Under the pieces are notes generated by a model. That model had not been told where the DNA came from. It saw only the letters and a program-made list of their open reading frames with translations, and did not search any database. This document shows positions 10,295 through 50,036 of a stretch of DNA of 64,000 nt, piece by piece (position 1 is the stretch's first letter; every line of letters begins with the position of its first letter). The position numbers and the translations under genes were made by a program. This stretch comes from Klebsiella phage 05F01, in sequence record LC483177.1. One strand, 5' to 3'.

Positions 10295-10307
10295 AAAATC
10301 TTTAATA

Positions 10308-10335: not shown

Positions 10336-10376
10336 TGGTAGACTGTTATTATCTTTATTCTCTGAGAGTGTAATGT

Positions 10377-10628: not shown

Positions 10629-10630
10629 CA

Positions 10631-11472: not shown

Positions 11473-11479
11473 AAAGTAG

Positions 11480-11508
11480 TTGACTTTCTGTAATGGCTGT
11501 TAGATAAT
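11480..11508 (+). promoter_or_regulatory. promoter cassette: TTGACT...GATAAT, with the palindrome AATGGCTGT...ACAGCCATT
   Basis: Duplicate of the cassette at 6724. Confidence 0.5.
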
Positions 11509-11543
11509 ACAGCCATTGAAGAGAGAAACTAACAGGTGATAAC

Positions 11544-11690
11544 ATGAAACAATATGTAATGAAGATTCACACTAAAAACGGCGCTACTGTTTCAACTCCT
11601 TTAAGATTTGCAGTAAAAACACGTTGCAATCGCCTTAAAAGAGAGTTATCTTTAAACAAAGATTCTGGATTTAGACGTTGGGGAAAGTGA
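11544..11690 (+). CDS. small hypothetical basic protein (48 aa), not in the ORF track
   Basis: Hand translation gives MKQYVMKIHTKNGATVSTPLRFAVKTRCNRLKRELSLNKDSGFRRWGK. Confidence 0.3.
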   Translation: MKQYVMKIHTKNGATVSTPLRFAVKTRCNRLKRELSLNKDSGFRRWGK

Positions 11691-11692
11691 AG

Positions 11693-12052
11693 ATGAAAAA
11701 ATTAATCATTGCTCTTACTTTAGTTTCATGCTCTTTTAGCTCTATGGCTTCGGATTCTACCTACCCATATTTAAAGGCTAAAGAAGACATTAAAAACTAT
11801 ACATTGGTTGCTTTTCCTGATAAAGAGCCAATTGATACTGCATATTCATTATTAAATATGGTTGATAATGAAATTGGAAAACAGCTTGCAAATAACCAGG
11901 ATTGTAGATACACTAAAGATACAGTAGTTCCTGCCGTGTCATATATTACACGAAAAGAAGATAGCAACAAAGTAATTGAGAATTTGCATAATAAAATGGT
12001 GAAATCTGTTTCTGATTATGTTACTGTTAAGTGTAAGGAGTTAACAGAATGA
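11693..12052 (+). CDS. putative lipoprotein (lipobox LVSC)
   Basis: Signal peptide MKKLIIALTLVSCSF. Confidence 0.5.
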   Translation: MKKLIIALTLVSCSFSSMASDSTYPYLKAKEDIKNYTLVAFPDKEPIDTAYSLLNMVDNEIGKQLANNQDCRYTKDTVVPAVSYITRKEDSNKVIENLHNKMVKSVSDYVTVKCKELTE

Positions 12053-12164
12053 AATTTTTAATTAAAAAAGAAAATAGCTTGACAGTTGGGGTATTAAATG
12101 GTTTAATTTGTTGTATCCCTTTTTACTTTGTTTTATTTATTATCTTTTTAGTTATAAAATGTGC

Positions 12165-12192
12165 TTGACTATTCGTTATGACCTGTTAGAAT
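12165..12192 (+). promoter_or_regulatory. promoter cassette: TTGACT-16nt-TAGAAT, with the palindrome ATGACCTGT...ACAGGTCAT
   Basis: Near-identical copy of the ~60-bp region at 9563. Confidence 0.55.
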
Positions 12193-12238
12193 ACAGGTCA
12201 TAGAGAAAAGAAACCACAACCAACAAAGAGAGATACAA

Positions 12239-12406
12239 ATGAACACTTTCAAAACTCGTGAAATTGCCCGTAACGTTGTTAGTATTGTTAACGCTAAGTG
12301 CATTGCAAAAATGAAAGCTCCAGTAAAAGACCCGGTTTCTGGTGAATGGGTGATTCCTGGATTACGTCATGAAGATGGGAAAGGCACACTGAAAGTGTCC
12401 CGTTAA
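12239..12406 (+). CDS. small hypothetical protein (55 aa), not in the ORF track
   Basis: Hand translation gives MNTFKTREIARNVVSIVNAKCIAKMKAPVKDPVSGEWVIPGLRHEDGKGTLKVSR. It lies downstream of the promoter cassette. Confidence 0.3.
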   Translation: MNTFKTREIARNVVSIVNAKCIAKMKAPVKDPVSGEWVIPGLRHEDGKGTLKVSR

Positions 12407-13076
12407 TAAAAATTACACAATAACATAAACATAAGGTAGAATAAATGCAACACACTAAAACAGTAGAAAAGATCCGCAGTAATAAAAAATTTTCCTGGAA
12501 TGAAGAAGTAGTAAAGAAAGGGGACAAACGCAATAAAACTAAACGTTCACGTGCTGAAAAAGAAATGTGCTACGATTTTTAATGCTGTTAATATAAATAA
12601 ATGGCCTCACGGTCCTTTTTTGTTTTTGTCTTAAAGTAAATACCACAAAACAACTTCACAGAATCGATTCTAAGCGCTTTAAACTCTCACTTAATACCTT
12701 TGCTCACCCTTTAATTAGAACCTCTCATAATAGCTTATAGGAGACATAGCACGCATATAAGTGATCTCCTATAGGATCATGTACACTTTCCTACCGTAAA
12801 AAATCGACTAATAAAATATTAGCGGCGGTCTCCTGATCCATTTTTATTTTTACCTGGGAGGCTGGGAAAATTTTTTCTTAATAGGTGAAAGTGTGGTAAA
12901 AATTTTTTGCCTCATATAAAACTCACTAGCAAAAATTTTTGAGTATATGAAAACTTCTACATGAAAAAATCGAGATCCTAAAACTCAAATCAGAAAAAAT
13001 TTTGCTTGCGCTTTTCCTGGTGTGCTGTATAGTAGTTATCAAGCCGCCACGGTGGGGGCATAAAGAGGATCAAGCA

Positions 13077-13346
13077 ATGACCAATACAGAACTTTTAATG
13101 AAGGCTTTAGGCTGGCAAGGTGGCACCGTTCACCAGGTGGCACAAGTAACTAAGTTAAATGTAATGACAATCTTAAACCTTCATGAAATAAAGATCACTG
13201 ATACATACCAGCTTGCTATGTATAATGGAGGCTACTTATGGCTAGTTAATGGTGGGAGTGAAAAAAACATTGACAAAGATAGTTTAGGGTACCCTCTTTT
13301 TTGGTTGGGTGTGTTGGATGCAATGAAACAAAAGATACCTAGTTAA
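13077..13346 (+). CDS. hypothetical protein
   Basis: The internal ATG (MTNTELLMKALGW...) is preferred over the track's TTG start. Confidence 0.35.
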   Translation: MTNTELLMKALGWQGGTVHQVAQVTKLNVMTILNLHEIKITDTYQLAMYNGGYLWLVNGGSEKNIDKDSLGYPLFWLGVLDAMKQKIPS

Positions 13347-14093: not shown

Positions 14094-14612
14094 CTAAATA
14101 TCTTTACTTAAAAAGTAATTAATTAAATCATTGTGCCACTTACCAAGCAGGTTTTGTCCCTTCCAGTTACTAGAGTCCTCTACCCCTTGATCATACATTC
14201 CCATCTTAATGCCATAGATTGCATCGTAAGGGCTAGCCTCTACGAATACCTTGTCTACGTATTTCATCAACTCTGTTTTGAGTTCAGGGTTTTGAGTATA
14301 CTTCATGAACAAACCACGTTTAACAATAACCTCCCGCCAATGCAACCACATTTCTTCCTCATAACCTTTAACTTCTCTTCCCATTCGTTTGTAGTAAGCT
14401 TGATCTTTTTCTCCTACACGTTTACGGCTTCCATTTAGGATTGCTAATGCAGTGTCATAGTCTTTAAACAATGAGGCTTTGCGCCACATCATATATTGTT
14501 CGACACAATCAAAATATTTACATCTCATTTTGTCATAGAATGGTGCAACATACCAGTTACTGAAAACATCTTTATCTGTGAAGAAGAATACATACTTATC
14601 TGTTACTCTCAC
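14094..14612 (-). CDS. NADAR (DUF1768 / YbiA-like) domain protein
   Basis: FFF...FSNWY..PF, EQYMMWRKA, QNPELK and VEASPYDAIYGI match the NADAR signature. Confidence 0.65.
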   Translation of the reverse strand: MRVTDKYVFFFTDKDVFSNWYVAPFYDKMRCKYFDCVEQYMMWRKASLFKDYDTALAILNGSRKRVGEKDQAYYKRMGREVKGYEEEMWLHWREVIVKRGLFMKYTQNPELKTELMKYVDKVFVEASPYDAIYGIKMGMYDQGVEDSSNWKGQNLLGKWHNDLINYFLSKDI

Positions 14613-31454: not shown

Positions 31455-31849
31455 AACTAGAAGAGATTTTATCACTGCAACCACAATGCTCTGCTGTTGA
31501 GTATGGAAAAGAGCCTAGCCTTTATGAACTTATTGAAAAATACTATGAGCCACATTTTCCAACAAAGTATAAAGATGTAGCTAAGGAATATGTAGAAGAG
31601 TTGAAGAAACTGGTAGTTAATGATACTAAAAGTTTCTTAGTAGGTAGCACTGTAAAAGTAGTTTTTGATGAGAATGAAGATAACCCAAACTCATTCAATA
31701 ATGAAGGTGTTTATATTGGTGATTATGGAGTAATTACTAATATGGGCGAAAGAGGTGAATTCCCTATTGATGTTTATATTCCAAGTATAGGATCAACAAT
31801 TGGATTTACACAAAATGAATTGGAGGTGGTGAATCATGCTGAAGTATAA
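31451..31849 (+). CDS. hypothetical protein (132 aa)
   Basis: ORF. Confidence 0.5.
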   Translation: MKLEEILSLQPQCSAVEYGKEPSLYELIEKYYEPHFPTKYKDVAKEYVEELKKLVVNDTKSFLVGSTVKVVFDENEDNPNSFNNEGVYIGDYGVITNMGERGEFPIDVYIPSIGSTIGFTQNELEVVNHAEV

Positions 31850-32459
31850 AGTTGGAGATTTGATTGAAGCAGCACGTAATGGTGAAGTTAACTACATTGG
31901 ACATGGATGTAACTGCTATACCACTATGGGCAGTGGAATTGCACCGTTGATTAAGGCTGCTTTCCCTTACGCCTACAAAGTTGACTGTCAGACAGGTAAA
32001 GGTGATATTACTAAGCTTGGTAGTTTCTCTGAGGCAGACCCACTTGAGTTTGATATGGAAGGTCCTGTTGTATTTAACTTATATACTCAGTATGGTTATT
32101 GGGGACGTAATCAAGGTAAGCGTGACCTTAACTATGATGCTATCTATAATGCACTTTCAGCAATGGCAGAACGTATGCATGATTTTGACAAAGGAGACCA
32201 AGAACGCCATGTAGTAGGACTACCAAAAATTGGTGCTGGGTACGCGGGTGGAGATTGGGATATCATTGAACTGATTATTAAGAAAACTCTATGTGCGCAA
32301 GGTATCGATGTTATTATCTATGTCCTTACAGAAGAAGAGATTCCAAGTAACATGCAGAAATTAATTACCTGTATGCAAGAAACTCTTGGTTGCTCGCGTC
32401 ATGAGGCAAAGAGCCTTATCTATCGTCAAGTTTATAGTATGGATGGTGGTAATGTATAA
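31836..32459 (+). CDS. macro-domain protein (ADP-ribose binding / hydrolase fold)
   Basis: VNYIGHGCNCYTTMGSGIAPLI follows the N-x-x-N...G-x-G-h-A pattern. VVGLPKIGAGYAGGDWD matches the SIAFPAISTGIYGYP motif. Confidence 0.55.
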   Translation: MLKYKVGDLIEAARNGEVNYIGHGCNCYTTMGSGIAPLIKAAFPYAYKVDCQTGKGDITKLGSFSEADPLEFDMEGPVVFNLYTQYGYWGRNQGKRDLNYDAIYNALSAMAERMHDFDKGDQERHVVGLPKIGAGYAGGDWDIIELIIKKTLCAQGIDVIIYVLTEEEIPSNMQKLITCMQETLGCSRHEAKSLIYRQVYSMDGGNV

Positions 32460-34702: not shown

Positions 34703-35365
34703 ATGATGACTATCAAACATATCTCTTTCGATGTATGGAATACCTTAATCACTGCCAATAAGGGGTATGCTTTAGAGCGTTCTCAGGTGATATCTTACTT
34801 TGCAGGTATTTCCACTAAAGAAGCAGCAGAAGCTTATGCACTTGTTAAAATGTCACTTGATATGGACGCTTCTCTTGGTATCTGTAATGGTGTAAGTCAT
34901 GCATGGTATGAACTAGGTAAGTTTTTGGGAGTAGATAGGTCAACAGCAGATAAAATCAGAACGCACTGTGAGAAAGCTTTTATTGCAAACCCACCTCACC
35001 TTGATAAATCTCTGGTTGACGAGTTATCTGCTCTTAGTAATAAACATGAGTTGAGTATTAAAAGTAATACCAACTTTATTTCAGGAGAGGTATTATCTGA
35101 GACTTTGGGTTTTTATGAGATGCCGTGGTGGAGCTTCACCCACTTCTCGGATGATTATGGTTGGTGCAAACCAGATCCACTATTCTTCCAATGGACACAG
35201 GTTTGTAGTGATATTCAAGGTATTCGTGCAGAAGAAATTTTACATGTAGGTGATAGTGAAATTTTTGATGGCAAATGTGTTGACATTGGATTTAACTTCT
35301 GTAAAATTGATAACCCTGAACACTTACTGAATAAACTTAAAAATGGAGAACTCATTAATGCGTAA
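34703..35365 (+). CDS. HAD-superfamily hydrolase (variant motif I)
   Basis: ISFDVWNTLI is motif I with the second Asp replaced. HVGDSEIFD is motif IV. Confidence 0.45.
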   Translation: MMTIKHISFDVWNTLITANKGYALERSQVISYFAGISTKEAAEAYALVKMSLDMDASLGICNGVSHAWYELGKFLGVDRSTADKIRTHCEKAFIANPPHLDKSLVDELSALSNKHELSIKSNTNFISGEVLSETLGFYEMPWWSFTHFSDDYGWCKPDPLFFQWTQVCSDIQGIRAEEILHVGDSEIFDGKCVDIGFNFCKIDNPEHLLNKLKNGELINA

Positions 35366-36185
35366 AACAACTCAATTCTTTGCACACAATTTTTCATCTC
35401 TGGCTGATGCAGGTTTTTCTACAGATGACTACTCCAAACTTAAATTTGGTAGTAATCAGTCAGCAAAGCGTTTGGGTTATGAATTAGCAGATAGGTTCTT
35501 TATTACTAAATGTGCTGATAAGTTTAATGAGCGATTCGTGGTAATTCCTTCACCATACAATCATGTTCACAATGCAGCAACAGAAATGTCTAATCATTTT
35601 GTAAACCGATTGAATTATCTATTCTCATGCAATAAGTATAAGAATAGTGTGGAGTGGGATATTATTCACCGTAAAGTCAGTTATATCAATGATTATGGTT
35701 TCTTGAGCAAAGAGGATCGTAAATCACTTATTGATGGGGATAGCTTCTACCTCAATAAAGAATTCTGGAGTGGAAAGACACTTATTTTTATTGATGATGT
35801 CAACATTACTGGTACCCATGAAGATAAGCTAGTAGACATTCTTAACGAAAATGAAGTAGAAAATGACACTTATTTTCTTTACTTTGCAAAATACACAGGG
35901 ACCGAGGCTAATACCGAAGCTGCATTAAACTTCAGCTATATCCATAGTGTAGAGAAGTTTATTGAGATGATTAAGGAAGAACATGATGCTAAATGTCTGG
36001 TTCGACCAATTAAGTATTTGATGTCTCAACCTGAGATAACATTTAAAGTGGCGATTTCACAATTACCAACCAACTATGTTGAACACTTGTTTTTCGGTTG
36101 CTTGGCAGAAGGCTATGACAAGATTGAAAAATACAATGAGAACTTTGAGTTCTTGAAACATTTCTATGAAAGTAATATCATGTAA
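35343..36185 (+). CDS. type I phosphoribosyltransferase-fold protein (PRPP-binding motif)
   Basis: TLIFIDDVNITGTHEDKL matches the hhhhDDhxxTGxT PRPP loop. The upstream VVIPSPYN resembles the PRTase and Prs pattern. Confidence 0.4.
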   Translation: MENSLMRKTTQFFAHNFSSLADAGFSTDDYSKLKFGSNQSAKRLGYELADRFFITKCADKFNERFVVIPSPYNHVHNAATEMSNHFVNRLNYLFSCNKYKNSVEWDIIHRKVSYINDYGFLSKEDRKSLIDGDSFYLNKEFWSGKTLIFIDDVNITGTHEDKLVDILNENEVENDTYFLYFAKYTGTEANTEAALNFSYIHSVEKFIEMIKEEHDAKCLVRPIKYLMSQPEITFKVAISQLPTNYVEHLFFGCLAEGYDKIEKYNENFEFLKHFYESNIM

Positions 36186-36196: not shown

Positions 36197-36823
36197 ATGA
36201 GTAAATTTAAAGCAGGTGATGTAGTGGTTCGTATCAATTCCACTCTAGGCGAGTCTAATTACAGCTTAGAAGAAGTGCCTATTGGATATGTGGGTGTTGT
36301 TTATGAAGGGTTCACTGATGATGATTATTTTGATTTTGGTGACAAATTCAAATACACGTATGACGATGAGGATTTTGTGTTAGCAATTTCATCTTCACCA
36401 TTATTGAGTAAGTCAGCTTATGGTGAATTCCTTGAATCAGCACAGGCGATTGCTAAAGTGCAAGGGAAAGCTTGTATTGATGAAATTACAGCTACTATTA
36501 GTAAACTTACTGCTATCCACACATATGTTGACGATGTAATTGCTGAGTTGGAAAAAATTAAAGATGAAGTATCTAAGGTTGAAAAATTCACATCAGAGCA
36601 ACTTGAAATTCTTTCAGCTTCTGTAAAAATCACCAAGTTAGTGGGTGAATACTATCGTGATGGTAAAAGTGAACCTCTGTTCTTGAATGGTAGTGGTAAG
36701 ATTCGTCCTCCTATGAACACTCAACTGCCAACAGATACATTTAGTATTGATGAAGTAGAAGGGACATTGGCTGGTATTTCTTTAGATAAAGAAGCTATCC
36801 TCACTTTGCTGCGTAGTTTTTAA
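36197..36823 (+). CDS. hypothetical protein (208 aa)
   Basis: ORF with an AAGGAGAGATAAA RBS. Confidence 0.5.
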   Translation: MSKFKAGDVVVRINSTLGESNYSLEEVPIGYVGVVYEGFTDDDYFDFGDKFKYTYDDEDFVLAISSSPLLSKSAYGEFLESAQAIAKVQGKACIDEITATISKLTAIHTYVDDVIAELEKIKDEVSKVEKFTSEQLEILSASVKITKLVGEYYRDGKSEPLFLNGSGKIRPPMNTQLPTDTFSIDEVEGTLAGISLDKEAILTLLRSF

Positions 36824-36826: not shown

Positions 36827-36850
36827 AAGGGGCGCAAGCCCCTTATTTTT
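36827..36850 (+). terminator. rho-independent terminator: AAGGGGC-gcaa-GCCCCTT + ATTTTT
   Basis: GNRA-type tetraloop hairpin followed by a T-run. Confidence 0.6.
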
Positions 36851-36860: not shown

Positions 36861-37202
36861 ATGTCAGACTTCAGTTATGTAAAGATGGTTAAAGCAAATA
36901 AAGTCCATAGATGTTGTGAATGTAGGGGTAAAATACATAAATCAGATAAGTATGAAAAATCTTTTATTGTTCAGGATGGTGATGTAAGTGAATATAAAGT
37001 ATGTAAACACTGCTGTGAGTCTCGTGATTGGTTATTAGACCATACAGACTGGAACCATGATATTGATGGAGAAGGGCATTCTTTTTATTACACAATGCTA
37101 CGAGAACATCTGAAGGAGCAAGCCACATATGGTAATAAAGATCTATCTTTTGCTTGCTATAGACATATCGTGAGAATGGACCAAAGGAGAAAAAATGAAT
37201 AA
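36861..37202 (+). CDS. zinc-ribbon protein (CCxC...CxxCC)
   Basis: HRCCECRGK...VCKHCCES. First gene of the operon that also holds the PARP-like and radical-SAM genes. Confidence 0.5.
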   Translation: MSDFSYVKMVKANKVHRCCECRGKIHKSDKYEKSFIVQDGDVSEYKVCKHCCESRDWLLDHTDWNHDIDGEGHSFYYTMLREHLKEQATYGNKDLSFACYRHIVRMDQRRKNE

Positions 37203-37333
37203 ACTATATTGGATACTCCTTATTTTGTCATACATCATGTTGAGTTATAATACAATTGAGTCATCTATATTTGGTTCAATGATTCTTATATCTGCAAATA
37301 CAATAGTATTTTATGATTGCAAAAGGAGGGAAA

Positions 37334-38614
37334 ATGTCAGAAAGTAAAATGTTGATTATGTTCGATTCTAAGAATAACAACAATAAATATTATGAAGCTA
37401 CATTAGATGATGCAGGAAATATCTCTGTTCGTTATGGGCGTGTTGGTGGTGGTGCTCAAACCACATCATATTCTGGTGGTAAACGTAAATTTGATAGCCT
37501 CATCTCCTCTAAAATTAAGAAAGGGTATAAAGAGGCACAACTTGAAGTGGTGAGCAGTGATACCGGATTAGTTAAACGTGGTAACGTTGTTGATGTTGCA
37601 CTGAAGCAGATTGATACTCAAGATGATATGAGTCGTGCTTTAATTCAGACCATCGCTAAAGCAAATATTCATAACATCACAAGCAGCACTAACATTAAAT
37701 ATGATGAAAAAGATGGCTTGTTTAAGACTCCTCTTGGAGTAGTTAAGAAGGAGGCTGTAGAAGAAGCAACTGCTTTACTGAGTAAGATCGAAGTTCATTT
37801 ACCTGCTTACTTAAATGATGGGAGTATGGAAGCAGAAATCTCTTCCCTAAATGACTCTTATTTTGTGCTTATTCCAAATAAGGTAAATACTACACGAGAT
37901 AAACGTTTTCTTCTCTTTAGTCAGAAAAATATTGATGTTCAAAAATCTGTATGTAAGGCACTATTGGAGACACTAGACCTTATTGAAGATCTTAAAAACA
38001 ATACAAATGAAGAAGAAAAAGTTGAAGTAGAGAAGATCTTTAACTTAGAAATCTCTCATGTAGAAGATGCCCAAACTATTGACCGTATTGTAAAATACTA
38101 CAATGAGAGTAAAAACTCCGATCATGGTGGTAGAATTATGGGGAGTCGTGTTAAAAACATTTACAAGATTAATCTGGGTAATCAGCAACAGCCTTTTGAG
38201 GAAGCTAAAGAGAAGTATGGGAACGTCCATGAGTTCTGGCATGGCACACGTGTAGCTAACCTCCTCTCTATCTTCTGTAAAGGACTTATGATGCCTAAAG
38301 AGAGTCCTGGAGCTAAGGCTGGTGCAATGTTTGGTTATGGAATTTACTTTGCTAACCAAAGTTCAAAAAGTATTAACTATTGTGACGGAATGTACTGGAC
38401 AGGTGGAAGTAACAGTGGTAAAGTTTACATGTTCCTTGCTTCTGTGGCTGTAGGTAAAGCGTATACGCCACCTCATTCTACACAAAGTAATCCACCAAAA
38501 GGTTATGATAGCTATTGGGCTAAAGCAGGTAAGTCTGGTGTTAGAAACGATGAGATCATTGTCTTTGACTTGAGTCAAGTTAGACTTGATTATTTACTCG
38601 AAATTGAAATCTAA
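37334..38614 (+). CDS. PARP-like ADP-ribosyltransferase (WGR domain + helical domain + catalytic domain with an H-Y-E triad)
   Basis: WGR-like YYEATLDDAGNISVRYGRVGG. Catalytic HGTR, GYGIYFA and NDEIIVFD (E-x-E-type Glu). Start moved to the ATG with an AGGAGGG RBS. Confidence 0.7.
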   Translation: MSESKMLIMFDSKNNNNKYYEATLDDAGNISVRYGRVGGGAQTTSYSGGKRKFDSLISSKIKKGYKEAQLEVVSSDTGLVKRGNVVDVALKQIDTQDDMSRALIQTIAKANIHNITSSTNIKYDEKDGLFKTPLGVVKKEAVEEATALLSKIEVHLPAYLNDGSMEAEISSLNDSYFVLIPNKVNTTRDKRFLLFSQKNIDVQKSVCKALLETLDLIEDLKNNTNEEEKVEVEKIFNLEISHVEDAQTIDRIVKYYNESKNSDHGGRIMGSRVKNIYKINLGNQQQPFEEAKEKYGNVHEFWHGTRVANLLSIFCKGLMMPKESPGAKAGAMFGYGIYFANQSSKSINYCDGMYWTGGSNSGKVYMFLASVAVGKAYTPPHSTQSNPPKGYDSYWAKAGKSGVRNDEIIVFDLSQVRLDYLLEIEI

Positions 38615-38630
38615 TTAAGGGGAAGGTTTT

Positions 38631-39560
38631 ATGAAGAAGATAGTCTCTGAGAATGGTATGGTGACAAAATACCTCCATAATAATGGAACAGAAACATCCT
38701 TTAAGAAACAGTTATCAGGTAGCTACGTAGATTCACTAGTTAAGCCTGATTTTAAAGATAAGAAAAAGTATAGCTTAGTTTTGTCATGTTCTCATGGATG
38801 TCAGTTATCTTGTTCATTTTGCCACTTAACTCAAAATGGTAAACCTTTCAATAAGATCAACACTGAAGATGTTATTGAAAATATTAAAGAGGTCATTACT
38901 GATCAAATTAATGAAGATCCTTCACTGAAAAGTAAGTATATAAAATTTTGCTGGCTGGGGGAAGGTGAACCATTACTTAATTATGAGATGATTAAGCGTG
39001 CTACTATTGAAGTGCTATTTTGGGTATTAGAAAACAAATATGCTCTTGGTTTGGATGGAGTTGACATTTCAACTTCAATGCCAAGGGTCAAGAAAGAAAC
39101 AATAAAGGATCTTAAATGGTTCAATAAATATCTTTCTGTATTCAATAAAAACCCAAACAACAAAGATAAAACAGCACTAAGATTATTTTATTCTTTACAT
39201 GCAGTAGATAATGACATTAGGTCTAAAATGATGCCAAAAACCATTCATATTAATGATGCTGTGAAATGCATGAAGGAAGTTGGTGATGAATTTGGAATTG
39301 ACACAATTTTCCATTATACATGGATAGAAGGTAAGAATGATTCAGATGATGATGTAGATAATCTTATTAAGTTTTGGAATGAGAACTCTCTACAGAAAAG
39401 TCAACTTCGTGTCTTAAGGTACAATAGTGGGACTAATCTAGATGAAGAAAGTGAAAATCTTGGTAAGATAATTTCAAAATTAAAGAAATTCATTCCAAAT
39501 CTGAAAGTTCAACATTCAGCAGGAAAAGAGGTCCAATCTTCTTGTGGTATGTTCAACTAA
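38631..39560 (+). CDS. RlmN/Cfr-family radical-SAM RNA methyltransferase homolog (minimal, without the N-terminal domain)
   Basis: [20 protein letters not shown] matches the RlmN segment [20 protein letters not shown] (Cx3Cx2C plus the extra upstream Cys). Further matches: [23 protein letters not shown] (SLHAPNDEIR) and a C-terminal SSCGMF (the CGQL methyl-Cys region). Confidence 0.7.
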   Translation: [309 protein letters not shown]

Positions 39561-39615
39561 TCTTGATTAAGATCATTATAAAAAGTGATGGAATACGTTA
39601 AAATAATAAGACACA

Positions 39616-39640
39616 AGCCGGAATTTTCCGGCTTTATTTC
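39616..39640 (+). terminator. rho-independent terminator: AGCCGG-aatttt-CCGGCT + TTATTT
   Basis: Hairpin followed by a T-run after the radical-SAM gene. Confidence 0.55.
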
Positions 39641-39654: not shown

Positions 39655-41769
39655 GTGAAAAAAGTTATTAAGCGTGATGGCAGAAAAGAAAATTATGATG
39701 AAGGCAAGATTTATCAGGCAGTGTATCAGGCTGCAAATAGTATCAACCTACTATCATTAACTTGTGAAGAAATTGCTAATGATGTTGCAGAGCACATTTC
39801 AAATAAAGTAAAGAATAGAGATGAATTAAAAATAAAAGATATTGAGTCTCTGGTAGAAAATTATCTTATGTCAAAGAATAAGACCAGAGATGTGGCAAGA
39901 AAGTATATTGAATATCGTCATGATAGAGATAGTGCAAGAGAATCTGGCGGAAAACTCTATAATGATTTGTTAGGTTTTCTTGACCAAAGCAATGAAGAGT
40001 TCACGAGAGAGAATGCCAATAAACCAAGTACCCTCGTAAACACCCACAGAGACCTCTTAGCGGGTATTTTAAGTAAACACATAGCAACCACACAGATTCT
40101 CCCTAAAAACCTCTCAGAATGGCATAGAGAAGGTTGGGGACACATTCATGACTTAGATTATTTAGTTAGTCCTCTCACGAATTGTTGTTTGGTTAACTAT
40201 CGTGATATGTTAGAGAATGGATTTAAGATTGGTAATGCTCAAATTGAAAAACCCAAGTCAATTGGTGTAGCTACTACAGTGCTTACTCAAATCATTCAAG
40301 CTGTAGCATCTAGTCAATATGGTGGACAAACTTGTGCTCATATTGATTCAGGATTGAAACAGTATGTAGAACTCTCTTTCAATAAGAATGTAAAACTTAT
40401 TAGGAACTTGTTTGGTGCTGAAATAAAAACAAACGCTATGCAACTCACCGAACAAGATGTATATGATGCAATGCAGACGCTTATCTATCAAGTCAATACC
40501 TTAATGAGTGTAAATGGTCAATCTCCTTTTATTACTATCAGTCTGGGACTAGATACCTCAGAATTTGGTAGAATGATCACCAGGAATTATTTACAGATCC
40601 ATAAAGAAGGGTTAGGGGTTGATAAAGTCACTCCCGTATTCCCTAAAGTTATCTTCTTCCTTGAAGAAGGTGTTAATATGAATCCAGGTGACCCTAATTA
40701 TGATTTAAAACAATTGGCACTGGAGTGTTGTTCTGAACGTATTTATCCAGATTTTATTTCAGTTCCTCGTAATAAGATGGTAACTAATTCTTCTGATGGA
40801 CATGTAACCAGCATGGGATGCAGGTCGTTCCTTTCTTACTATGCTACTGAGCAAGGTGAGAAATATGATGGGAGATTTAATCTTGGTGTTGTCTCTGTCA
40901 ATCTTCCTATGATTGCCAAAGATTGTGTAGTAAATGGGAAGCTCTTCATTGAAGAACTCTATAAGCACATGAGGAACGCCTTTGATGCCCATATGGTGAG
41001 GATTAATCGGTTAAAAGGAACAAAAGCAAAACAAAATCCTGTCTTGTTCATGGAAGGTGCATTATCACGTCTGGATGCAGAAGATACTATTGACAAACTT
41101 TTCTATAAAGGATATGCTTCAGCTAGCTTTGGCTATGTTGGGTTATATGAAGCTGTTCAGATTTTGTATCCTAATACATCTCTAGAAGAGTATCGAGAAA
41201 AAGGATCTTTTATTCTTGATCGAATGCAGAGTATGTCAGATGAATATAAAAATAAGACTAATATTAGCTTCAGTCTTTATGGTACCCCTGCTGAAAGCTT
41301 GTGTTACAAATTTGCATCTCAACTTAATGATAAGTTCCCTGGAACATTAGAAAAAGATTATTTAACAAACTCTTTTCATGTCCCTGTTGATGTAGCTGTT
41401 AACCCATTCACTAAATGGGAAATTGAATCTGGATTTGACATTTTAAGTAGTGGTGGGAATATCGGGTATGTTGAGACACCTAATCTAAAAGGGAATATGA
41501 AAGCACTAGAGACGCTTGTTGACTTTGGTTATAGTAATATACATTACTTTGGTATCAATCAGCCAATTGATAAGTGCTTTAAATGTGGGTTCAGTGGTGA
41601 GTTTAAAGCCACACAAGATGGATTTAGTTGTCCTGAATGTGGTAACTCAGATGAAGAAACTATCAGTGTGATTCGTCGTGTTAGTGGATACTTATCTAGT
41701 CCTAATAGTAGACCTTTTAACAAAGGGAAGATGCAAGAAGTTGTCCAACGTGTGAAACACACTAGTTGA
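39655..41769 (+). CDS. nrdD: anaerobic ribonucleoside-triphosphate reductase (class III)
   Basis: N-terminal ATP-cone (VIKRDGRKENYDEGKI). C-terminal Zn ribbon (CFKCG...CPECG) and the glycyl-radical motif RRVSGYL. GTG start with a GGAGG RBS. Confidence 0.85.
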   Translation: MKKVIKRDGRKENYDEGKIYQAVYQAANSINLLSLTCEEIANDVAEHISNKVKNRDELKIKDIESLVENYLMSKNKTRDVARKYIEYRHDRDSARESGGKLYNDLLGFLDQSNEEFTRENANKPSTLVNTHRDLLAGILSKHIATTQILPKNLSEWHREGWGHIHDLDYLVSPLTNCCLVNYRDMLENGFKIGNAQIEKPKSIGVATTVLTQIIQAVASSQYGGQTCAHIDSGLKQYVELSFNKNVKLIRNLFGAEIKTNAMQLTEQDVYDAMQTLIYQVNTLMSVNGQSPFITISLGLDTSEFGRMITRNYLQIHKEGLGVDKVTPVFPKVIFFLEEGVNMNPGDPNYDLKQLALECCSERIYPDFISVPRNKMVTNSSDGHVTSMGCRSFLSYYATEQGEKYDGRFNLGVVSVNLPMIAKDCVVNGKLFIEELYKHMRNAFDAHMVRINRLKGTKAKQNPVLFMEGALSRLDAEDTIDKLFYKGYASASFGYVGLYEAVQILYPNTSLEEYREKGSFILDRMQSMSDEYKNKTNISFSLYGTPAESLCYKFASQLNDKFPGTLEKDYLTNSFHVPVDVAVNPFTKWEIESGFDILSSGGNIGYVETPNLKGNMKALETLVDFGYSNIHYFGINQPIDKCFKCGFSGEFKATQDGFSCPECGNSDEETISVIRRVSGYLSSPNSRPFNKGKMQEVVQRVKHTS

Positions 41770-42672: not shown

Positions 42673-42827
42673 ATGCATACAAAGAGATCATTGAGGCATT
42701 AGAGTGGTATTTAGGCGATGGCGTAAACCCACTGAGTTCAGACTGTATATATGAAATTATTAATCAAGAGCACGACCCTATTGAAACAATAGCAAAAGCT
42801 CTGGATTATTATAGGGAAAATAAATGA
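42669..42827 (+). CDS. small hypothetical protein (52 aa), not in the ORF track
   Basis: MNAYKEIIEALEWYLGDGVNPLSS... It has ATGA overlaps with both neighbouring genes, suggesting translational coupling. Confidence 0.3.
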   Translation: MNAYKEIIEALEWYLGDGVNPLSSDCIYEIINQEHDPIETIAKALDYYRENK

Positions 42828-43312
42828 ACTACGCAGGGTACATTTTTGGTGACCTTGTGAATGGAGAGGGAGCTAGATGTTCCCTTTTTGTTTCTGGTTG
42901 CTCAAGAGGTTGTGAAGGGTGCTTTAACAAAGAGACTTGGGATTATTCCTATGGTTCTGTGTATACAAAAGAAACACAAGAAATGATTCTAAGAGATTTA
43001 TCAAAAGGTTACATCTCAGGACTGAGTATCTTAGGAGGTAATCCTTTAGAGAGAAAGAATTTTGATGTAGTGTACAACTTATGTGAAGAAGTTAAAAACA
43101 CATTTACAAACAAAGACATATGGATTTGGTGTGGTCAAACTTTTGAAGAAATCTCAAATGATAGTAAATTTAGTAAGATATTGCCCTTGACAGATGTTTT
43201 GGTGGATGGTAAATTTATCCCATCGAAAGCGAATCCTTCCTTGAAGTGGAGAGGTTCAAGTAATCAGAACATTTGGGTTAAGAGGGATGAAGAGTGGATT
43301 ATTCAACATTAA
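42824..43312 (+). CDS. nrdG: anaerobic RNR activating enzyme (radical SAM)
   Basis: CSLFVSGCSRGCEGCFN cluster, and GGNPLE. Confidence 0.8.
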   Translation: MNYAGYIFGDLVNGEGARCSLFVSGCSRGCEGCFNKETWDYSYGSVYTKETQEMILRDLSKGYISGLSILGGNPLERKNFDVVYNLCEEVKNTFTNKDIWIWCGQTFEEISNDSKFSKILPLTDVLVDGKFIPSKANPSLKWRGSSNQNIWVKRDEEWIIQH

Positions 43313-44510: not shown

Positions 44511-45575
44511 ATGAACACTTTTATGAAATTTTACAAATGGCCCACATTCTTCTTTGTGTTGGCACTTTTAGCAGGGGCATGGATTGGCTTCGTTGAGGCT
44601 GGTGTAAGTGGAATGTTAAGTAGTGTATTGGCTGTTGGTATTCTGTGTATTCTTGAAATCTCACTGTCATTTGACAATGCGGTATTGAATGCTAAAAAAC
44701 TTCAAGATATGGAACAAAAATGGCGTGATTGGTTTATTAAGTGGGGGATGCTGATCGCCGTTTTCGGAATGCGCTTGGTTCTTCCTATCCTTATCGTATC
44801 TGTCTTAGGTGGAATGGCTCCGTGGACTGCTGTAAGCTTAGGTCTACATGACCCAGCTAAGTATGCAGAGGTGTTGCAAAGTAGCCACCATATTGTAGCT
44901 AGCTTTGGTGGTGCGTTCCTGATGATGGTTGCTCTTGAGTTCTTCCTTGATCATGAAAAAGATGTTCACTGGATGAAATGGATTGAATATCCTGTTAGTC
45001 ATATTGGTAAAGTGGGTATTGTTGCAGAAGCTTTCATTACACTTCTTATGATTATTGGAGCAAGTTTTGGTGCTCATGGAGATGATCAAGTGATGTTTAT
45101 TATCTCAGGTGTATGTGGTATCCTGCTCTTTGTGGGTATTCATTTCCTGAAAGAGTATCTTGAATCGAAGGATGAAGAGAAAGCAGCGGCATCTGTTGGT
45201 GCAGTAGTTAAATCAGGATTGGCTGGTGTTCTCTACCTAGAAGTTCTGGATGCATCTATGTCTTTTGATGGCCTGATTGCTGCATTTGCGATTACACAAT
45301 ATTTTCTTGTGATTATGTTAGGTTTGGGTGTTGGTGCCTTCTTTGTCCGAGAAATGACACTGCATGTTCTTGATAGTGGACATCTTGCTGAATTCCGTTA
45401 CCTTGAACATGGTGCTTTCTATGCTATCTTTTCTCTGGCTAGCATCATGCTCCTAAACTTCTTCTTTGAAGTCCCAGAAGTTGTCACCGGATTGATTGGT
45501 GTAGCATTCCTTACAGCAGCAGTGTGGCATAGTCATATCCTTAATAAACGTGAAGAGTCTCTTGTTACAAGTTGA
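44511..45575 (+). CDS. TerC-family integral membrane protein (DUF475/YceF-like)
   Basis: Multi-pass membrane protein with the LEISLSFDNAVLNA motif, the TerC family LS.DN signature. Confidence 0.55.
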   Translation: MNTFMKFYKWPTFFFVLALLAGAWIGFVEAGVSGMLSSVLAVGILCILEISLSFDNAVLNAKKLQDMEQKWRDWFIKWGMLIAVFGMRLVLPILIVSVLGGMAPWTAVSLGLHDPAKYAEVLQSSHHIVASFGGAFLMMVALEFFLDHEKDVHWMKWIEYPVSHIGKVGIVAEAFITLLMIIGASFGAHGDDQVMFIISGVCGILLFVGIHFLKEYLESKDEEKAAASVGAVVKSGLAGVLYLEVLDASMSFDGLIAAFAITQYFLVIMLGLGVGAFFVREMTLHVLDSGHLAEFRYLEHGAFYAIFSLASIMLLNFFFEVPEVVTGLIGVAFLTAAVWHSHILNKREESLVTS

Positions 45576-48980: not shown

Positions 48981-50036
48981 ATGACAAGCCCTTTTAAACA
49001 ACAAACAGCTACAAAAGCTAAGTCACCGTTTGGTAACGTAGAGATTAAGAATAGTCCTATCAAGGCCCCAACTATTTCTAAAATTCCTAAAACACCTGTT
49101 ATCCGTTTGACTGAAGAAGAGATTGAATCCCTTGGAAGTGCTACTGGCACTTCTTTGAGGGCAGTATCTGGACAAATGCTGGCATTTCAACAGAACAATT
49201 CTAATGATGAAATGACCAGTCGTCTCAACACTATGATGCTGGAAGCTAAAAAACTTGATCCAGATTCTATCAAGCAAGCTAAAGGTATTTCTAAATTCAT
49301 TAAAAAGATTATGGGTGTAAAAGAAAACCTCTTTGCTGAATTTAAGACAATTGAGGCTCGCATTAATGAACTGTCAGAAGAAATTATGAAGGATATCCGA
49401 AAGCAAAATGATAGCTTGGTGTTCCTTGATAATTTAAAACGATCTGTAGGTGAGTTTCTACTTTCTATGGAACGTGACCTACAAATTCTGCAAGCAGAGT
49501 ATGAGAAGACTGAAGAAGACTTTAATATTGCTGATCCAGAAGACAAAAATGAACTACAGGCACGTCTTGACCTTATTTTAACTCGTGTTGCAGATATTAA
49601 AGGATTCAGAATCCTTTGTGTTCAGATGGGGCAGCGCATTGACAATATGAAGAAAACCAGTAAGATGCTTACTGTAGGTGCTAAGAACTTGCTAGAAAAA
49701 GCTGTTCCGGCTTATGCAGCATCTTTCTCCATTTACATTACAGCGAAAGAACAAGTTGAGGCTGCTAAAACTCAGAATAATATTATTGATGGATTTAATG
49801 ATGTTATTCAGAAAGGTAATGAAATGGCTAATGTTGCTCAAATTGAAGCAACTAAACTGTCAAATAAACAGACTGTTTCTCTTGAAACACTAAACCATGC
49901 TAAAGAGTCAATGTTCACTCTATTTGATGAAGTTGACCGCCTTAATAAAGAGGCTCGTGCAAACACACTTGAGTATATCAAAGCAGCAGATGTCCTTGAG
50001 TCCGATATTGCTAAACGTATTAGGGATGCCCGATAA
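48981..50036 (+). CDS. coiled-coil protein, possibly TelA-like (toxic anion resistance family). Low confidence.
   Basis: ~350 aa, long helical/coiled-coil content, and a position in a Ter-like neighbourhood. No diagnostic motif verified. Confidence 0.3.
   Translation: MTSPFKQQTATKAKSPFGNVEIKNSPIKAPTISKIPKTPVIRLTEEEIESLGSATGTSLRAVSGQMLAFQQNNSNDEMTSRLNTMMLEAKKLDPDSIKQAKGISKFIKKIMGVKENLFAEFKTIEARINELSEEIMKDIRKQNDSLVFLDNLKRSVGEFLLSMERDLQILQAEYEKTEEDFNIADPEDKNELQARLDLILTRVADIKGFRILCVQMGQRIDNMKKTSKMLTVGAKNLLEKAVPAYAASFSIYITAKEQVEAAKTQNNIIDGFNDVIQKGNEMANVAQIEATKLSNKQTVSLETLNHAKESMFTLFDEVDRLNKEARANTLEYIKAADVLESDIAKRIRDAR

What the first reader, a model, noticed from the sequence alone, without database searches (positions are those of the whole stretch)
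36861..39560. Operon coupling a PARP-like ADP-ribosyltransferase (WGR + H-Y-E catalytic domain) with a minimal RlmN/Cfr-type radical-SAM RNA methyltransferase and a Zn-ribbon protein, immediately upstream of nrdD-nrdG
Seen in sequence: the operon is bounded by intrinsic terminators at 36827..36850 and 39616..39640. It holds three tightly spaced genes. (1) A 113-aa CxxC zinc-ribbon protein. (2) A 427-aa protein whose N-terminus matches a WGR domain (…ISVRYGRVGG…) and whose C-terminus has the PARP catalytic signature: HGTR…GYGIYFA…NDEIIVFD. That is an intact His-Tyr-Glu triad, so it is potentially poly- or oligo-ADP-ribosylating. (3) A 309-aa protein that aligns motif-for-motif with RlmN/Cfr: [20 protein letters not shown] vs RlmN [43 protein letters not shown] vs SLHAPNDEIR; and a C-terminal SSCGMF vs the methyl-carrying Cys region CGQL. 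It lacks the ~100-aa N-terminal RNA-binding domain of RlmN.

Established knowledge: PARP WGR domains bind nucleic acid ends. RlmN and Cfr methylate C2 and C8 of A2503 in 23S rRNA, and Cfr gives multi-drug ribosome resistance. ARTs that modify RNA or DNA are increasingly recognised.

Inference: this is a phage-encoded nucleic-acid-directed ADP-ribosylation plus RNA-methylation module. It may act on the ribosome or tRNA during takeover, or counter a host defence. I do not know of a described phage system pairing a PARP with an RlmN/Cfr homolog. The same window also carries a macro domain, a NADAR and a Tad2-like gene.
Basis: partly seen in the sequence, partly recalled or inferred. Interest (0 to 1): 0.85.

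Follow-up and report, generated by a model that had tools for sequence, protein, structure and literature searches.

The report
Phage PARP beside RlmN-like radical-SAM gene
A Klebsiella-type phage carries a genuine PARP-type ADP-ribosyltransferase next to a stripped-down relative of the RlmN/Cfr RNA methylases; both genes are real, but they are independent accessory genes that are neighbours only in this one phage lineage, not a coupled system.

Summary
ORFs at 36861-37202 (Zn-ribbon), 37334-38614 (PARP, 426 aa) and 38631-39560 (radical SAM, 309 aa) lie between two conserved hairpin terminators, upstream of nrdD/nrdG.

The PARP is canonical: WGR, helical regulatory and catalytic domains, with the His-Tyr-Glu triad in register with PARP1. 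It is 53-58% identical to Yarrowia PARPs. Phage PARPs are already described and annotated.

The radical-SAM protein belongs to a small, mostly viral clade whose only solved relatives are RlmN and Cfr. It keeps the CX3CX2C cluster and the methyl-carrying Cys. It lacks the N-terminal domain and the canonical second catalytic Cys (RlmN C118), and scores far below the RlmN/Cfr family cut-offs.

The "coupled module" reading is not supported:
- 0 of 28 independent rSAM loci have a PARP within 10 kb, and 0 of 44 PARP loci have this rSAM.
- Sister Klebsiella phages have the PARP without the rSAM.
- Other relatives put different genes between the two.
- The Zn-ribbon gene travels alone in unrelated phages.

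Verdict: two separate accessory genes in a variable slot. The rSAM clade is the more interesting part.

The parts
36827..36850 (+). Intrinsic-terminator-like hairpin (AAGGGGCGCAAGCCCCTT followed by a T-rich tail) after gene 36197-36823. It marks the upstream boundary of the unit.
   Evidence: The identical sequence sits at the equivalent position in L013.
36861..37202 (+). 113-aa protein with two CxxC pairs (C18-C21, C48-C51), a putative zinc ribbon of unknown function.
   Evidence: ORF. No Pfam, NCBIfam or PDB match. phrog_28814 at 2.4e-44, unknown function. Homologs occur in about 46-kb Klebsiella phages and Serratia phage Parlo that lack the PARP and the rSAM. Absent from L001-L006 and present only in L013.
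37195..37347 (+). Overlooked 50-aa hydrophobic ORF, a probable small membrane protein. It overlaps the ZnR stop and the PARP start.
   Evidence: ORF. RBS AAAGGAG lies upstream of the ATG. Intact and 74% identical in L013, with hydrophobic segments.
37334..38614 (+). PARP, 426 aa. In 426-aa numbering: WGR domain at about aa 6-69 (YGRVGG at 34-39), helical regulatory domain at about aa 103-224, ART catalytic domain at about aa 249-426. Triad: H303 (HGTR), Y338 (GYGIYFA), E407 (NDEIIVFD).
   Evidence: Pfam. Alignment to PARP1 H862/Y896/E988. AlphaFold model pLDDT 83.6. Foldseek top hits are PARP1 WGR-CAT bound to a DNA break and PARP2, 6e-27 to 1e-24. H303, Y338 and E407 are invariant in 31 homologs. 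Start codon. Residue coordinates.
38631..39560 (+). Stand-alone RlmN/Cfr-superfamily radical SAM enzyme, 309 aa. [4Fe-4S] motif C57-x3-C61-x2-C64. SAM-binding GEGEP at aa 110-114. C305 in SSCGMF is the equivalent of methyl-carrying Cys355 of RlmN. V50 sits at the position of RlmN C118. Extra Cys at C53 and C107.
39615..39640 (.). Bidirectional terminator-like hairpin (AAGCCGGAATTTTCCGGCTT) between the rSAM gene and nrdD.
   Evidence: Identical in L013. A terminator is annotated at the equivalent place in phage FBKp34.
39655..41769 (+). nrdD, anaerobic ribonucleotide reductase (context, a separate unit).
   Evidence: Pfam NRDD 6e-162, ATP-cone, Gly_radical.
42824..43312 (+). nrdG, the NrdD activating radical-SAM enzyme (context).
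   Evidence: Pfam Fer4_12 1.2e-49.
31836..32459 (+). DarG/TARG1-class macro-domain protein. It is conserved in this phage lineage about 5 kb upstream of the PARP (context). It could be an ADP-ribose eraser or an anti-DarT factor.
   Evidence: Pfam Macro 9.8e-5. PADLOC DarG 1.7e-10. Closest PDB chains are DarG macrodomains 5M31/5M3I and SCO6735 5E3B. Present in all 7 loci of the window's own lineage (L001-L006, L013), but in only 5/44 independent PARP loci.

Best explanation
This is a stretch of co-directional accessory genes in the variable slot upstream of nrdD of a Stephanstirmvirinae-like phage of Klebsiella or a related enterobacterium. Two conserved hairpin terminators delimit it. It holds four ORFs that act independently.

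(1) The PARP. It has the minimal PARP2/3-like architecture WGR-HD-ART with the H-Y-E triad. Most likely it is held off by its helical domain until the WGR domain binds a DNA end or nick. It then uses NAD+ to mono- or poly-ADP-ribosylate itself and proteins (or DNA termini) at those ends during infection. This is how HaPARP, CdPARP and Yarrowia Pyl1 behave.

(2) The radical-SAM protein. It belongs to a small, mainly viral sister clade of RlmN/Cfr. Most likely it methylates its own C-terminal Cys305 from SAM. It then cleaves a second SAM at the C57/C61/C64 [4Fe-4S] cluster and adds the resulting methylene radical to an sp2 carbon of an adenine in RNA. Product release must use something other than the canonical Cys118. 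Candidates in this protein are C107 or C53; other clade members would need another general base.

(3) The Zn-ribbon protein and (4) the 50-aa membrane peptide are unrelated small accessory ('moron'-type) genes.

What is shown: gene presence, domain architecture, conserved catalytic residues, fold, family distribution, and the lack of co-occurrence. What is inferred: activation by DNA ends, the substrates, and methyl-transfer chemistry.
For: PARP:
- Pfam WGR, PARP_reg and PARP all pass their cut-offs.
- PARP1 catalytic fragments match at 3e-21, with H862/Y896/E988 aligned to H303/Y338/E407.
- The triad is invariant in 31 homologs.
- The model superposes on PARP1 WGR-CAT bound to a DNA break and on PARP2.
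- It is 53-58% identical over its full length to a Yarrowia PARP. Y. lipolytica Pyl1 auto-PARylates and binds DNA (PMC12412787).
- HaPARP needs DNA for activity, and CdPARP is active in vitro (PMC8120803).

rSAM:
- The family profile hits only RlmN and Cfr chains in the PDB, at about 2e-20, with C305 aligned to C355/C338.
- The model has pLDDT 93.5. Its top fold matches are RlmN-family structures at 3e-16 to 1e-12, TM 0.67-0.70, well ahead of generic radical-SAM folds.
- The cluster Cys and C305 are invariant in 70 homologs.

Independence of the genes:
- 0/28 and 0/44 co-occurrence.
- The phage records hit by each family do not overlap.
- Presence/absence differs between sister phages, and different genes are inserted between the two.
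- ZnR occurs alone in unrelated phages.
- No gene tracks either family across lineages.
Against: - Within this phage's own lineage (window, L013, L003-L006) the PARP and rSAM genes are always within about 450 bp of each other. They lie in one terminator-bounded stretch, so co-transcription is likely, and a lineage-specific functional link cannot be excluded.
- The rSAM scores far below every RlmN/Cfr curated cut-off (62.8 versus 290 bits).
- It lacks the N-terminal domain.
- The canonical C118 is missing in all but 4 of 119 clade representatives, and 24 of 119 have no Cys at any candidate position. Methyl transfer to RNA is therefore an extrapolation.
- No substrate evidence exists. tRNA-array proximity is no more frequent for rSAM loci (13/36) than for PARP control loci (27/44).
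- H-Y-E does not distinguish poly- from mono-ADP-ribosylation.
- No promoter is recognisable between the upstream hairpin and ZnR.
Confidence: 0.72

Rival explanations
1. ZnR, PARP and rSAM form one functional module in which nucleic-acid-directed ADP-ribosylation and RNA methylation cooperate on a common target (ribosome or tRNA) during takeover or counter-defence.
For: The genes are tightly spaced and co-directional between two conserved hairpins. PARP and rSAM are neighbours in six contigs of this lineage.
Against: - 0/28 rSAM loci have a PARP, and 0/44 PARP loci have this rSAM, within 10 kb.
- Of the deposited phages, 9 records have the PARP and 26 have the rSAM, with no record in common.
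- FBKp34 and KP13-16 keep the PARP without the rSAM.
- YqeY or a 61-aa ORF is inserted between the two genes in relatives.
- ZnR is missing from L001-L006 and occurs alone in small Klebsiella phages.
Confidence: 0.08
2. The rSAM protein is not a methyltransferase. This clade has lost the Cys118 general base. It may therefore perform different radical chemistry that uses C305 as an H-atom donor or acceptor. Alternatively it may form a persistent covalent protein-nucleic-acid adduct, as the RlmN C118A mutant does.
For: - The canonical position is V/I/L/F/Y in 115 of 119 representatives, and 24 have no Cys at any candidate site.
- CcrColossus gp283 and Bajun have only 4 Cys: the cluster plus the C-terminal one.
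- RlmN C118A crystallises cross-linked to tRNA (PDB 5HR6/5HR7 titles).
- The N-terminal domain is missing.
Against: - The 'AACGQF/SSCGMF' motif around the methyl-carrying Cys is invariant, and the GxGEP SAM motif is kept.
- Most members keep an additional Cys at 107 and/or 267.
- A general base need not be Cys: class C methylases use a carboxylate (PMC13266988).
- A stoichiometric suicide enzyme seems an inefficient weapon against abundant RNAs.
Confidence: 0.18
3. The rSAM gene is functionally tied to the anaerobic ribonucleotide reductase genes immediately downstream, for example as an anaerobic nucleotide or nucleic-acid modification module, rather than to the PARP.
For: In every contig of this lineage the rSAM sits directly upstream of nrdD. 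Both are oxygen-sensitive radical enzymes.
Against: - A conserved hairpin terminator separates them.
- FBKp34 and KP13-16 have nrdD/nrdG without the rSAM.
- Only 2 of 35 independent rSAM loci have nrdD within 10 kb, and none has nrdG.
- NrdG is already present as the dedicated activase.
Confidence: 0.05
4. The PARP mainly modifies DNA ends, not proteins. Like PARP2/3, it would ADP-ribosylate terminal phosphates at breaks. This would either cap phage genome ends against host exonucleases or mark degraded host DNA.
For: The WGR-HD-ART architecture is the one shared by PARP2 and PARP3, and the model superposes on break-bound PARP1/PARP2. The window also carries two DNA-ADP-ribose erasers, a DarG-like macro domain and a NADAR, so DNA ADP-ribosylation is a live issue for this phage. 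That PARP2/3 modify DNA termini is from my own knowledge and was not checked here.
Against: No direct evidence. The closest characterised relatives (Pyl1, HaPARP, CdPARP) are reported as protein and auto-PARylating enzymes (PMC12412787, PMC8120803). The macro and NADAR genes are better explained as anti-DarT counter-defences (PMC11825919, PMC13309987).
Confidence: 0.15

Closest known systems
Bacterial and phage PARPs: Herpetosiphon aurantiacus PARP, Clostridioides difficile CD160 PARP, Xanthomonas phage XacN1 PARP, Klebsiella phage vB_KpM_FBKp34 gp111
   Same: The three-domain WGR + PARP_reg + PARP architecture and the H-Y-E triad. The window's PARP is 80% identical to FBKp34 gp111, which is already annotated as poly [ADP-ribose] polymerase, and it sits at the same position upstream of nrdD. 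It is 33-37% identical to jumbo-phage PARPs.
   Different: Nothing architectural. No phage PARP has a demonstrated target or role in the literature I could search.
Yarrowia lipolytica Pyl1 and related fungal PARPs (Smittium, Coemansia, Hesseltinella)
   Same: 53-58% identity across the whole phage protein. Pyl1 is an experimentally shown PARP that auto-PARylates, modifies Ku70/80 and binds dsDNA (PMC12412787).
   Different: The yeast protein carries an insertion of about 160 aa (a coiled-coil region) between the N-terminal part and the catalytic part. I did not confirm that P0140 (from Yarrowia sp. B02) is the ortholog of Pyl1.
Human PARP2/PARP3 and the WGR-CAT fragment of PARP1
   Same: The same fold over the full length, the same domain order, and the catalytic triad in register.
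   Different: Only about 22-25% identity. No zinc fingers, BRCT domain or N-terminal extension. The WGR motif reads YGR rather than WGR.
RlmN (23S rRNA A2503 / tRNA A37 C2-methylase) and Cfr (A2503 C8-methylase), the class A radical SAM methylases
   Same: These are the only solved relatives by profile search and the best fold matches. Shared features: the CX3CX2C cluster, the GxGEP SAM motif, the SLH motif, the beta extension before the core, and the C-terminal 'AACGQ'-type Cys that carries the methyl group.
   Different: About 17% identity. Scores are 62.8 bits against the RlmN cut-off of 290, and 36-39 bits against the Cfr cut-offs of 468-550. The N-terminal helical domain of about 65 aa and the C-terminal tail are absent. 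The Cys118/Cys105 general base is replaced by a hydrophobic residue or Tyr.
phrog_27142 'Fe-S-cluster redox domain-containing' proteins of jumbo phages (201phi2-1 gp434, CcrColossus gp283, Phabio, Psa21, Brevundimonas phages)
   Same: The same stand-alone size of about 300 aa, the same cluster and C-terminal Cys, and the same lack of the canonical Cys118. Some are auto-annotated as RlmN or as methyltransferase.
   Different: Only 22-27% identical to the window protein. They lack C53, C107 and C267 altogether.

Membership tests
PARP (ARTD) family, DNA-dependent PARP1-3 type | ART catalytic domain with the His-Tyr-Glu triad | tested here: met
   Pfam PF00644 at 4e-26, 92 bits against a cut-off of 26.7. 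H303, Y338 and E407 align to PARP1 H862, Y896 and E988. They are invariant in 31 homologs.
PARP (ARTD) family, DNA-dependent PARP1-3 type | Helical (regulatory, autoinhibitory) domain directly N-terminal to the ART domain | tested here: met
   PF02877 at 27.2 bits, just above the 26.8 cut-off. The PARP1 HD+ART alignment covers residues 129-401 of the 433-aa ORF. Helices H139-221 appear in the model.
PARP (ARTD) family, DNA-dependent PARP1-3 type | WGR nucleic-acid-binding domain | tested here: met
   PF05406 at 32.2 bits against a cut-off of 22. The full-length fold match includes the WGR domain of PARP1/PARP2 on DNA breaks. The motif reads Y-G-R rather than W-G-R.
PARP (ARTD) family, DNA-dependent PARP1-3 type | NAD+-dependent (poly)ADP-ribosylation activated by DNA breaks | not testable with these tools
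   Needs enzyme assays. The closest characterised homologs (Pyl1, HaPARP, CdPARP) are active (PMC12412787, PMC8120803).
Radical SAM superfamily | CX3CX2C [4Fe-4S] motif in a partial TIM barrel, plus the SAM-binding GGE-type motif | tested here: met
   C57/C61/C64 are invariant. PF04055 at 38.1 bits against a cut-off of 29.5. GEGEP at aa 110-114. The model fold matches radical SAM enzymes.
Class A radical SAM methylases (RlmN/Cfr) | Passes the curated RlmN or Cfr family thresholds | tested here: not met
   TIGR00048 at 62.8 bits against a cut-off of 290. The Cfr models (NF011024, NF000424, TIGR04432) score 36-39 bits against cut-offs of 468-550.
Class A radical SAM methylases (RlmN/Cfr) | C-terminal methyl-carrying cysteine (RlmN C355 / Cfr C338) | tested here: met
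   C305 is invariant in 70 homologs. It aligns to C355/C338 within the 'aaCGqF' versus 'AACGQL' motif. It is present in about 113 of 119 clade representatives.
Class A radical SAM methylases (RlmN/Cfr) | Second catalytic cysteine, 7 residues before the first cluster Cys (RlmN C118 / Cfr C105) | tested here: not met
   The position is V50 in the window protein. It is Cys in only 4 of 119 representatives. C53 aligns to RlmN S121. C107 (60/70) and C267 (28/70) are possible substitutes, but 24 of 119 have none of them.
Class A radical SAM methylases (RlmN/Cfr) | N-terminal accessory (RNA-contacting) domain | tested here: not met
   The first cluster Cys is at residue 57, against 125 in E. coli RlmN. 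The profile alignment starts at model position 99. The whole clade is 280-350 aa long.
Class A radical SAM methylases (RlmN/Cfr) | Closest overall fold is RlmN/Cfr | tested here: met
   Foldseek: 6fz6 at 3e-16; E. coli RlmN 5hr7/5hr6/3rfa at 3e-14 to 7e-13, TM 0.67-0.70; Cfr 9p0p at 6e-8.
Class A radical SAM methylases (RlmN/Cfr) | C2 or C8 methylation of adenosine in rRNA or tRNA | not testable with these tools
   Needs reconstitution and LC-MS. Genomic context gives no specific clue.
Conserved multi-gene system (PARP + rSAM + ZnR operon) | Components co-occur across independent lineages | tested here: not met
   0/28 and 0/44. The sets of deposited phage records do not overlap. ZnR and PRTase are found only in L013.

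The most novel reading that the evidence does not exclude
The roughly 160-cluster, mostly viral clade to which the 309-aa protein belongs is a third branch of class A radical-SAM enzymes. It keeps the methyl-carrying cysteine but has dispensed with both the RNA-docking N-terminal domain and the Cys118 general base. It could therefore have a new substrate (for example phage or host tRNA, DNA, or a nucleotide) and a new product-release chemistry. In the extreme case it could form a deliberate covalent enzyme-RNA adduct used in host takeover.
Probability: 0.15. Interest if true: 0.75.

Novelty: new variant of a known kind. Interest (0 to 1): 0.38.

Why it matters
The headline claim, a phage system that couples a PARP to an RlmN/Cfr homolog, would have been a new kind of host-takeover module. 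The evidence shows it is an accident of gene order in one lineage.

What remains is more modest but real:

1. A well-conserved phage PARP with no known target. It is unusually close to the experimentally validated Yarrowia PARP, which makes it an easy entry point for asking what PARylation does in a phage infection.

2. An uncharacterised viral clade of RlmN/Cfr-like enzymes that lacks a residue considered essential for the class A mechanism. If active, it would show how that chemistry can be completed without Cys118, and it could reveal a phage-installed RNA (or DNA) methyl mark.

Automated annotations of these proteins as 'RlmN' or '23S rRNA methyltransferase' should be treated with caution.

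Tried and rejected
1. Close-relative scan of viral contigs with the single rSAM protein found nothing. It worked only with the family alignment.

2. phmmer of the rSAM against the PDB gave spurious polyubiquitin hits, made of many weak repeats. The family-profile search replaced it.

3. tRNA substrate hypothesis. Several rSAM genes sit inside tRNA arrays or next to Rnl1/PNKP, Q-salvage or CCA-enzyme genes. The PARP-seeded control loci are at least as tRNA-rich (27/44 versus 13/36). RNA-repair homologs are about equally rare in both sets. I rejected this as specific evidence.

4. Conserved-neighbour search for the rSAM found only lineage-specific clusters, a homing-endonuclease-like gene and RlaP. 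RlaP is also found near PARPs.

5. PARP-macro 'writer-eraser' pairing looked promising. It holds in only 5/44 independent PARP loci against 2/35 rSAM loci, so I kept it only as a possibility.

6. 'Migrated second cysteine' idea. Every member of the first 70-sequence set has a Cys at 50, 107 or 267. The wider set and the jumbo-phage homologs break the rule.

7. PADLOC defence models gave nothing meaningful for the PARP, rSAM or ZnR.

8. Literature searches found no study of phage RlmN/Cfr-like enzymes or of FBKp34's PARP.

9. A Tad2-like gene was not found among about 45 ORFs scanned with Pfam. The scan was not exhaustive.

Full report
**1. What is in the sequence**

The region 36.8-39.7 kb holds ORFs on the + strand at 36861-37202 (113 aa), 37313/37334-38614 and 38631-39560 (309 aa). 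nrdD follows at 39655-41769 and nrdG at 42824-43312. G+C-rich hairpins with T-rich tails lie at 36827-36844 and 39615-39634. As a class, such sites are not enriched in the 8-kb region (4 found, 3.1 +/- 2.0 expected). Both, however, are intergenic and are conserved base for base in the nearest relative, L013. Phage FBKp34 has an annotated terminator at the place equivalent to the second one.

Ribosome-binding sites place the PARP start at 37334 (AAGGAGG, then ATG). That gives 426 aa, identical to database protein P0110.

It is intact and 74% identical in L013.

**2. The PARP**

Pfam gives PARP catalytic domain (4e-26), WGR (1.1e-7) and PARP_reg (4.6e-6), all above their curated cut-offs. Against solved structures, the protein matches PARP1 catalytic fragments at 3e-21. 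HGTR aligns to H862, GIYFA to Y896 and NDEIIVFD to E988. These three residues are invariant in an alignment of 31 homologs.

An AlphaFold model (pLDDT 83.6) superposes over its full length on the WGR-HD-ART fragment of PARP1 bound to a DNA double-strand break, and on PARP2 (6e-27 to 1e-24). This is the minimal DNA-dependent PARP architecture.

It is not new for phages:
- The ortholog in Klebsiella phage vB_KpM_FBKp34 (80% identity) is already annotated 'poly [ADP-ribose] polymerase' with the same three domains.
- Jumbo-phage PARPs are noted in PMC7824862.
- The PART/PARP family is listed among the most frequent viral ARTs in PMC9503650.
- Bacterial WGR-reg-PARP enzymes (HaPARP, which is DNA-dependent, and CdPARP) are active in vitro (PMC8120803).

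Unexpectedly, the phage protein is 53% (aa 1-153) and 58% (aa 164-426) identical to a Yarrowia PARP, which differs by an internal insertion of about 160 aa. Y. lipolytica Pyl1 is an experimentally validated PARP (PMC12412787).

**3. The radical-SAM protein**

Pfam Radical_SAM scores 2.3e-9. Among NCBIfam models the best hit is RlmN TIGR00048 (2.5e-17), followed by other RlmN/Cfr models. The scores are 62.8 bits against a cut-off of 290 for RlmN, and 36-39 bits against 468-550 for the Cfr models. PHROGs puts it in phrog_27142, 'Fe-S-cluster redox domain-containing'.

A homology search found 109 relatives of 280-365 aa. A profile of 70 of them hits only RlmN and Cfr chains in the whole PDB, at about 2e-20. 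The model (pLDDT 93.5) has RlmN-family structures as its best matches (3e-16 to 7e-13, TM up to 0.70) and Cfr at 6e-8. Generic radical-SAM folds come well behind.

C57, C61, C64 and C305 are invariant. C305 aligns with the methyl-carrying C355 of RlmN and C338 of Cfr, inside the shared 'AACGQ' motif.

Two defining features are missing.
- The N-terminal helical domain of about 65 aa is absent. The first cluster Cys is at residue 57, against 125 in RlmN.
- The second catalytic Cys is absent. RlmN C118 and Cfr C105 align to V50.

Position 107 is Cys in 60 of 70 homologs and position 267 in 28 of 70. An exhaustive search sizes the clade at 162 representatives at E <= 1e-30 out of 1.84 billion proteins. 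Of the 119 full-length representatives, only 4 have the canonical Cys. Twenty-four have no Cys at any of positions 50, 107 or 267. The jumbo-phage homologs CcrColossus gp283 and Bajun have just four cysteines, the cluster plus the C-terminal one.

In the accepted mechanism, Cys355 carries the methyl group and Cys118 acts as the general base that releases the product (PMC13266988). The C118A mutant stays cross-linked to tRNA (PDB 5HR6/5HR7, listed). This clade therefore resembles RlmN/Cfr in fold and in the first half-reaction. It cannot be filed as a member, and its product-release step, if it methylates at all, must differ.

**4. Are the genes coupled?**

The window has no close relative among deposited phages, except that its PARP gene is about 75% identical in DNA to that of Klebsiella phage KP13-16, a member of Stephanstirmvirinae.

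Gene order in the relatives is as follows:
- FBKp34 and KP13-16: g36197-like, PARP, one or two small genes (one of them YqeY-like), nrdD. There is no rSAM.
- Four metagenomic contigs of about 140 kb: PARP, YqeY, rSAM, nrdD.
- The nearest relative L013 (about 90% DNA identity): PRTase, 208 aa, 118 aa, ZnR, small ORF, PARP, a 61-aa membrane ORF, rSAM, nrdD.

The slot between g36197 and nrdD is therefore a variable region in which small genes come and go.

Outside this lineage the two families are independent:
- More distant rSAM members (34-46% identity) have no PARP nearby.
- 0 of 28 rSAM-seeded viral loci carry a PARP within 10 kb, and 0 of 44 PARP-seeded loci carry this rSAM family.
- The 26 deposited phage records with the rSAM and the 9 with the PARP do not overlap.
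- The Zn-ribbon protein (phrog_28814; no Pfam or PDB match) occurs alone in about 46-kb Klebsiella phages and in Serratia phage Parlo.

Neighbour clustering found no partner gene conserved across lineages for the rSAM. For the PARP it found only an unknown protein of about 220 aa encoded downstream (typically within 1-2 kb) in 8-10 loci, absent here, and an occasional macro domain.

**5. Clues to substrate**

Some rSAM loci sit inside tRNA arrays, or beside T4-type RNA ligase 1 + PNKP, a queuosine-salvage gene or a CCA-adding enzyme. I used the PARP-seeded loci as a control set of large-phage accessory regions. They are at least as tRNA-rich (27/44 against 13/36), and RNA-repair homologs are similarly rare in both sets. 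The context therefore gives no specific support for a tRNA substrate. The RNA-adenine methylation proposal rests on homology alone.

**6. Wider context**

The window also encodes:
- a DarG/TARG1-class macro domain at 31836-32459;
- a NADAR at 14094-14612, minus strand;
- a ComF-like PRTase directly upstream at 35343-36185;
- an RNA ligase, a UvrD-type helicase, TerC/DUF475 and TelA.

Orphan DarG-like and NADAR-like antitoxins in phages are documented counter-defences against DarT toxins (PMC11825919, PMC13309987). That is a simpler reading for the macro and NADAR genes than partnership with the PARP. The macro gene is, however, conserved about 5 kb upstream of the PARP throughout this lineage. 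I did not find a Tad2-like domain among the ORFs scanned.

**7. Verdict**

The domain assignments are right. The 'coupled operon' interpretation is not supported.

The PARP is a new member of a known kind. The rSAM protein belongs to an uncharacterised, mostly viral variant of the RlmN/Cfr class that lacks two of its defining features, and this is the part that merits experimental follow-up.

Interest is moderate, 0.38. The most novel reading that the evidence does not exclude is that this clade carries out new class A radical-SAM chemistry, or acts on a new substrate. I give that a probability of about 0.15.

Noticed in passing
window 37334-38614; proteins P0140, P0143, P0150-P0157: The phage PARP is 46-59% identical over its full length to PARPs of Yarrowia, Smittium, Coemansia, Hesseltinella and other early-diverging fungi. 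That is far closer than to human PARP1-3 (about 22-25%). It suggests that these fungal PARPs, including the validated Y. lipolytica Pyl1 type, belong to the phage/bacterial PARP clade, possibly through horizontal transfer. The Pyl1 paper does not discuss this.
   Followed up: partly
window 37195-37347: An unannotated 50-aa hydrophobic ORF with a good RBS overlaps both the ZnR stop and the PARP start. It is conserved (74% aa identity) in L013. L013 also has a different 61-aa hydrophobic ORF inserted between the PARP and the rSAM (L013 7774-7959).
   Followed up: partly
window 31836-32459: A macro-domain protein whose closest solved relatives are DarG macrodomains and SCO6735 (PADLOC DarG 1.7e-10). 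It is conserved throughout this phage lineage. It is probably an orphan antitoxin-like counter-defence against DarT DNA ADP-ribosylation, or an eraser for the PARP.
   Followed up: partly
window 14094-14612 (- strand): A NADAR domain protein (Pfam 1.5e-33). NADARs reverse guanine ADP-ribosylation of DNA. Together with the macro gene and the PARP, this gives the phage three ADP-ribose-related genes.
   Followed up: no
window 35343-36185: A ComF-like phosphoribosyltransferase (PF15610, 4e-44; weak PADLOC hit to the retron type III-A PRTase effector). It lies two genes upstream of the Zn-ribbon gene, about 1.1 kb upstream of the PARP. It is present only in the window and L013, not in other relatives. 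Its function is unknown.
   Followed up: no
loci L045, L046, L048, L049, L052, L053, L054, L057, L058, L061, L064 (about 1.3-6 kb downstream of the PARP): An unknown protein of about 220 aa is encoded downstream of the PARP gene (typically within 1-2 kb) in 8-10 independent viral contigs. It is the most recurrent PARP neighbour found and is absent from the window. It is a candidate PARP partner or substrate in those phages.
   Followed up: no
L002 (FBKp34) 10286-13303 and L006 8033-10900: nrdD is interrupted in some relatives. In L006 it is split into two ORFs flanking a 164-aa ORF, and in FBKp34 the gene is about 900 bp longer, with the match in two pieces. This suggests an intein or a homing-endonuclease/intron insertion. 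The window's nrdD is uninterrupted.
   Followed up: no
loci L019-L023, L025-L028, L030 and many PARP loci (L045-L048, L053, L062, L069, L081, L082): Both the rSAM and the PARP genes of large uncultured phages often lie inside or beside big tRNA arrays (up to 33 tRNAs, plus tmRNA, within 20 kb). Several arrays include suppressor-type tRNAs with a CTA anticodon.
   Followed up: partly
window 44511-45575 and 48981-50036: The phage encodes a TerC/DUF475 membrane protein and a TelA-like protein (tellurite-resistance-associated families). TerC is conserved downstream of nrdG in all relatives.
   Followed up: no
L086 (201phi2-1 gp434), L087 (CcrColossus gp283), L088 (Bajun): In the jumbo-phage branch of the rSAM clade, the position of RlmN Cys118 is a conserved Tyr, and the proteins contain only the three cluster Cys plus the C-terminal Cys. 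Some GenBank records annotate these as 'ribosomal RNA large subunit methyltransferase N', which is probably over-specific.
   Followed up: partly
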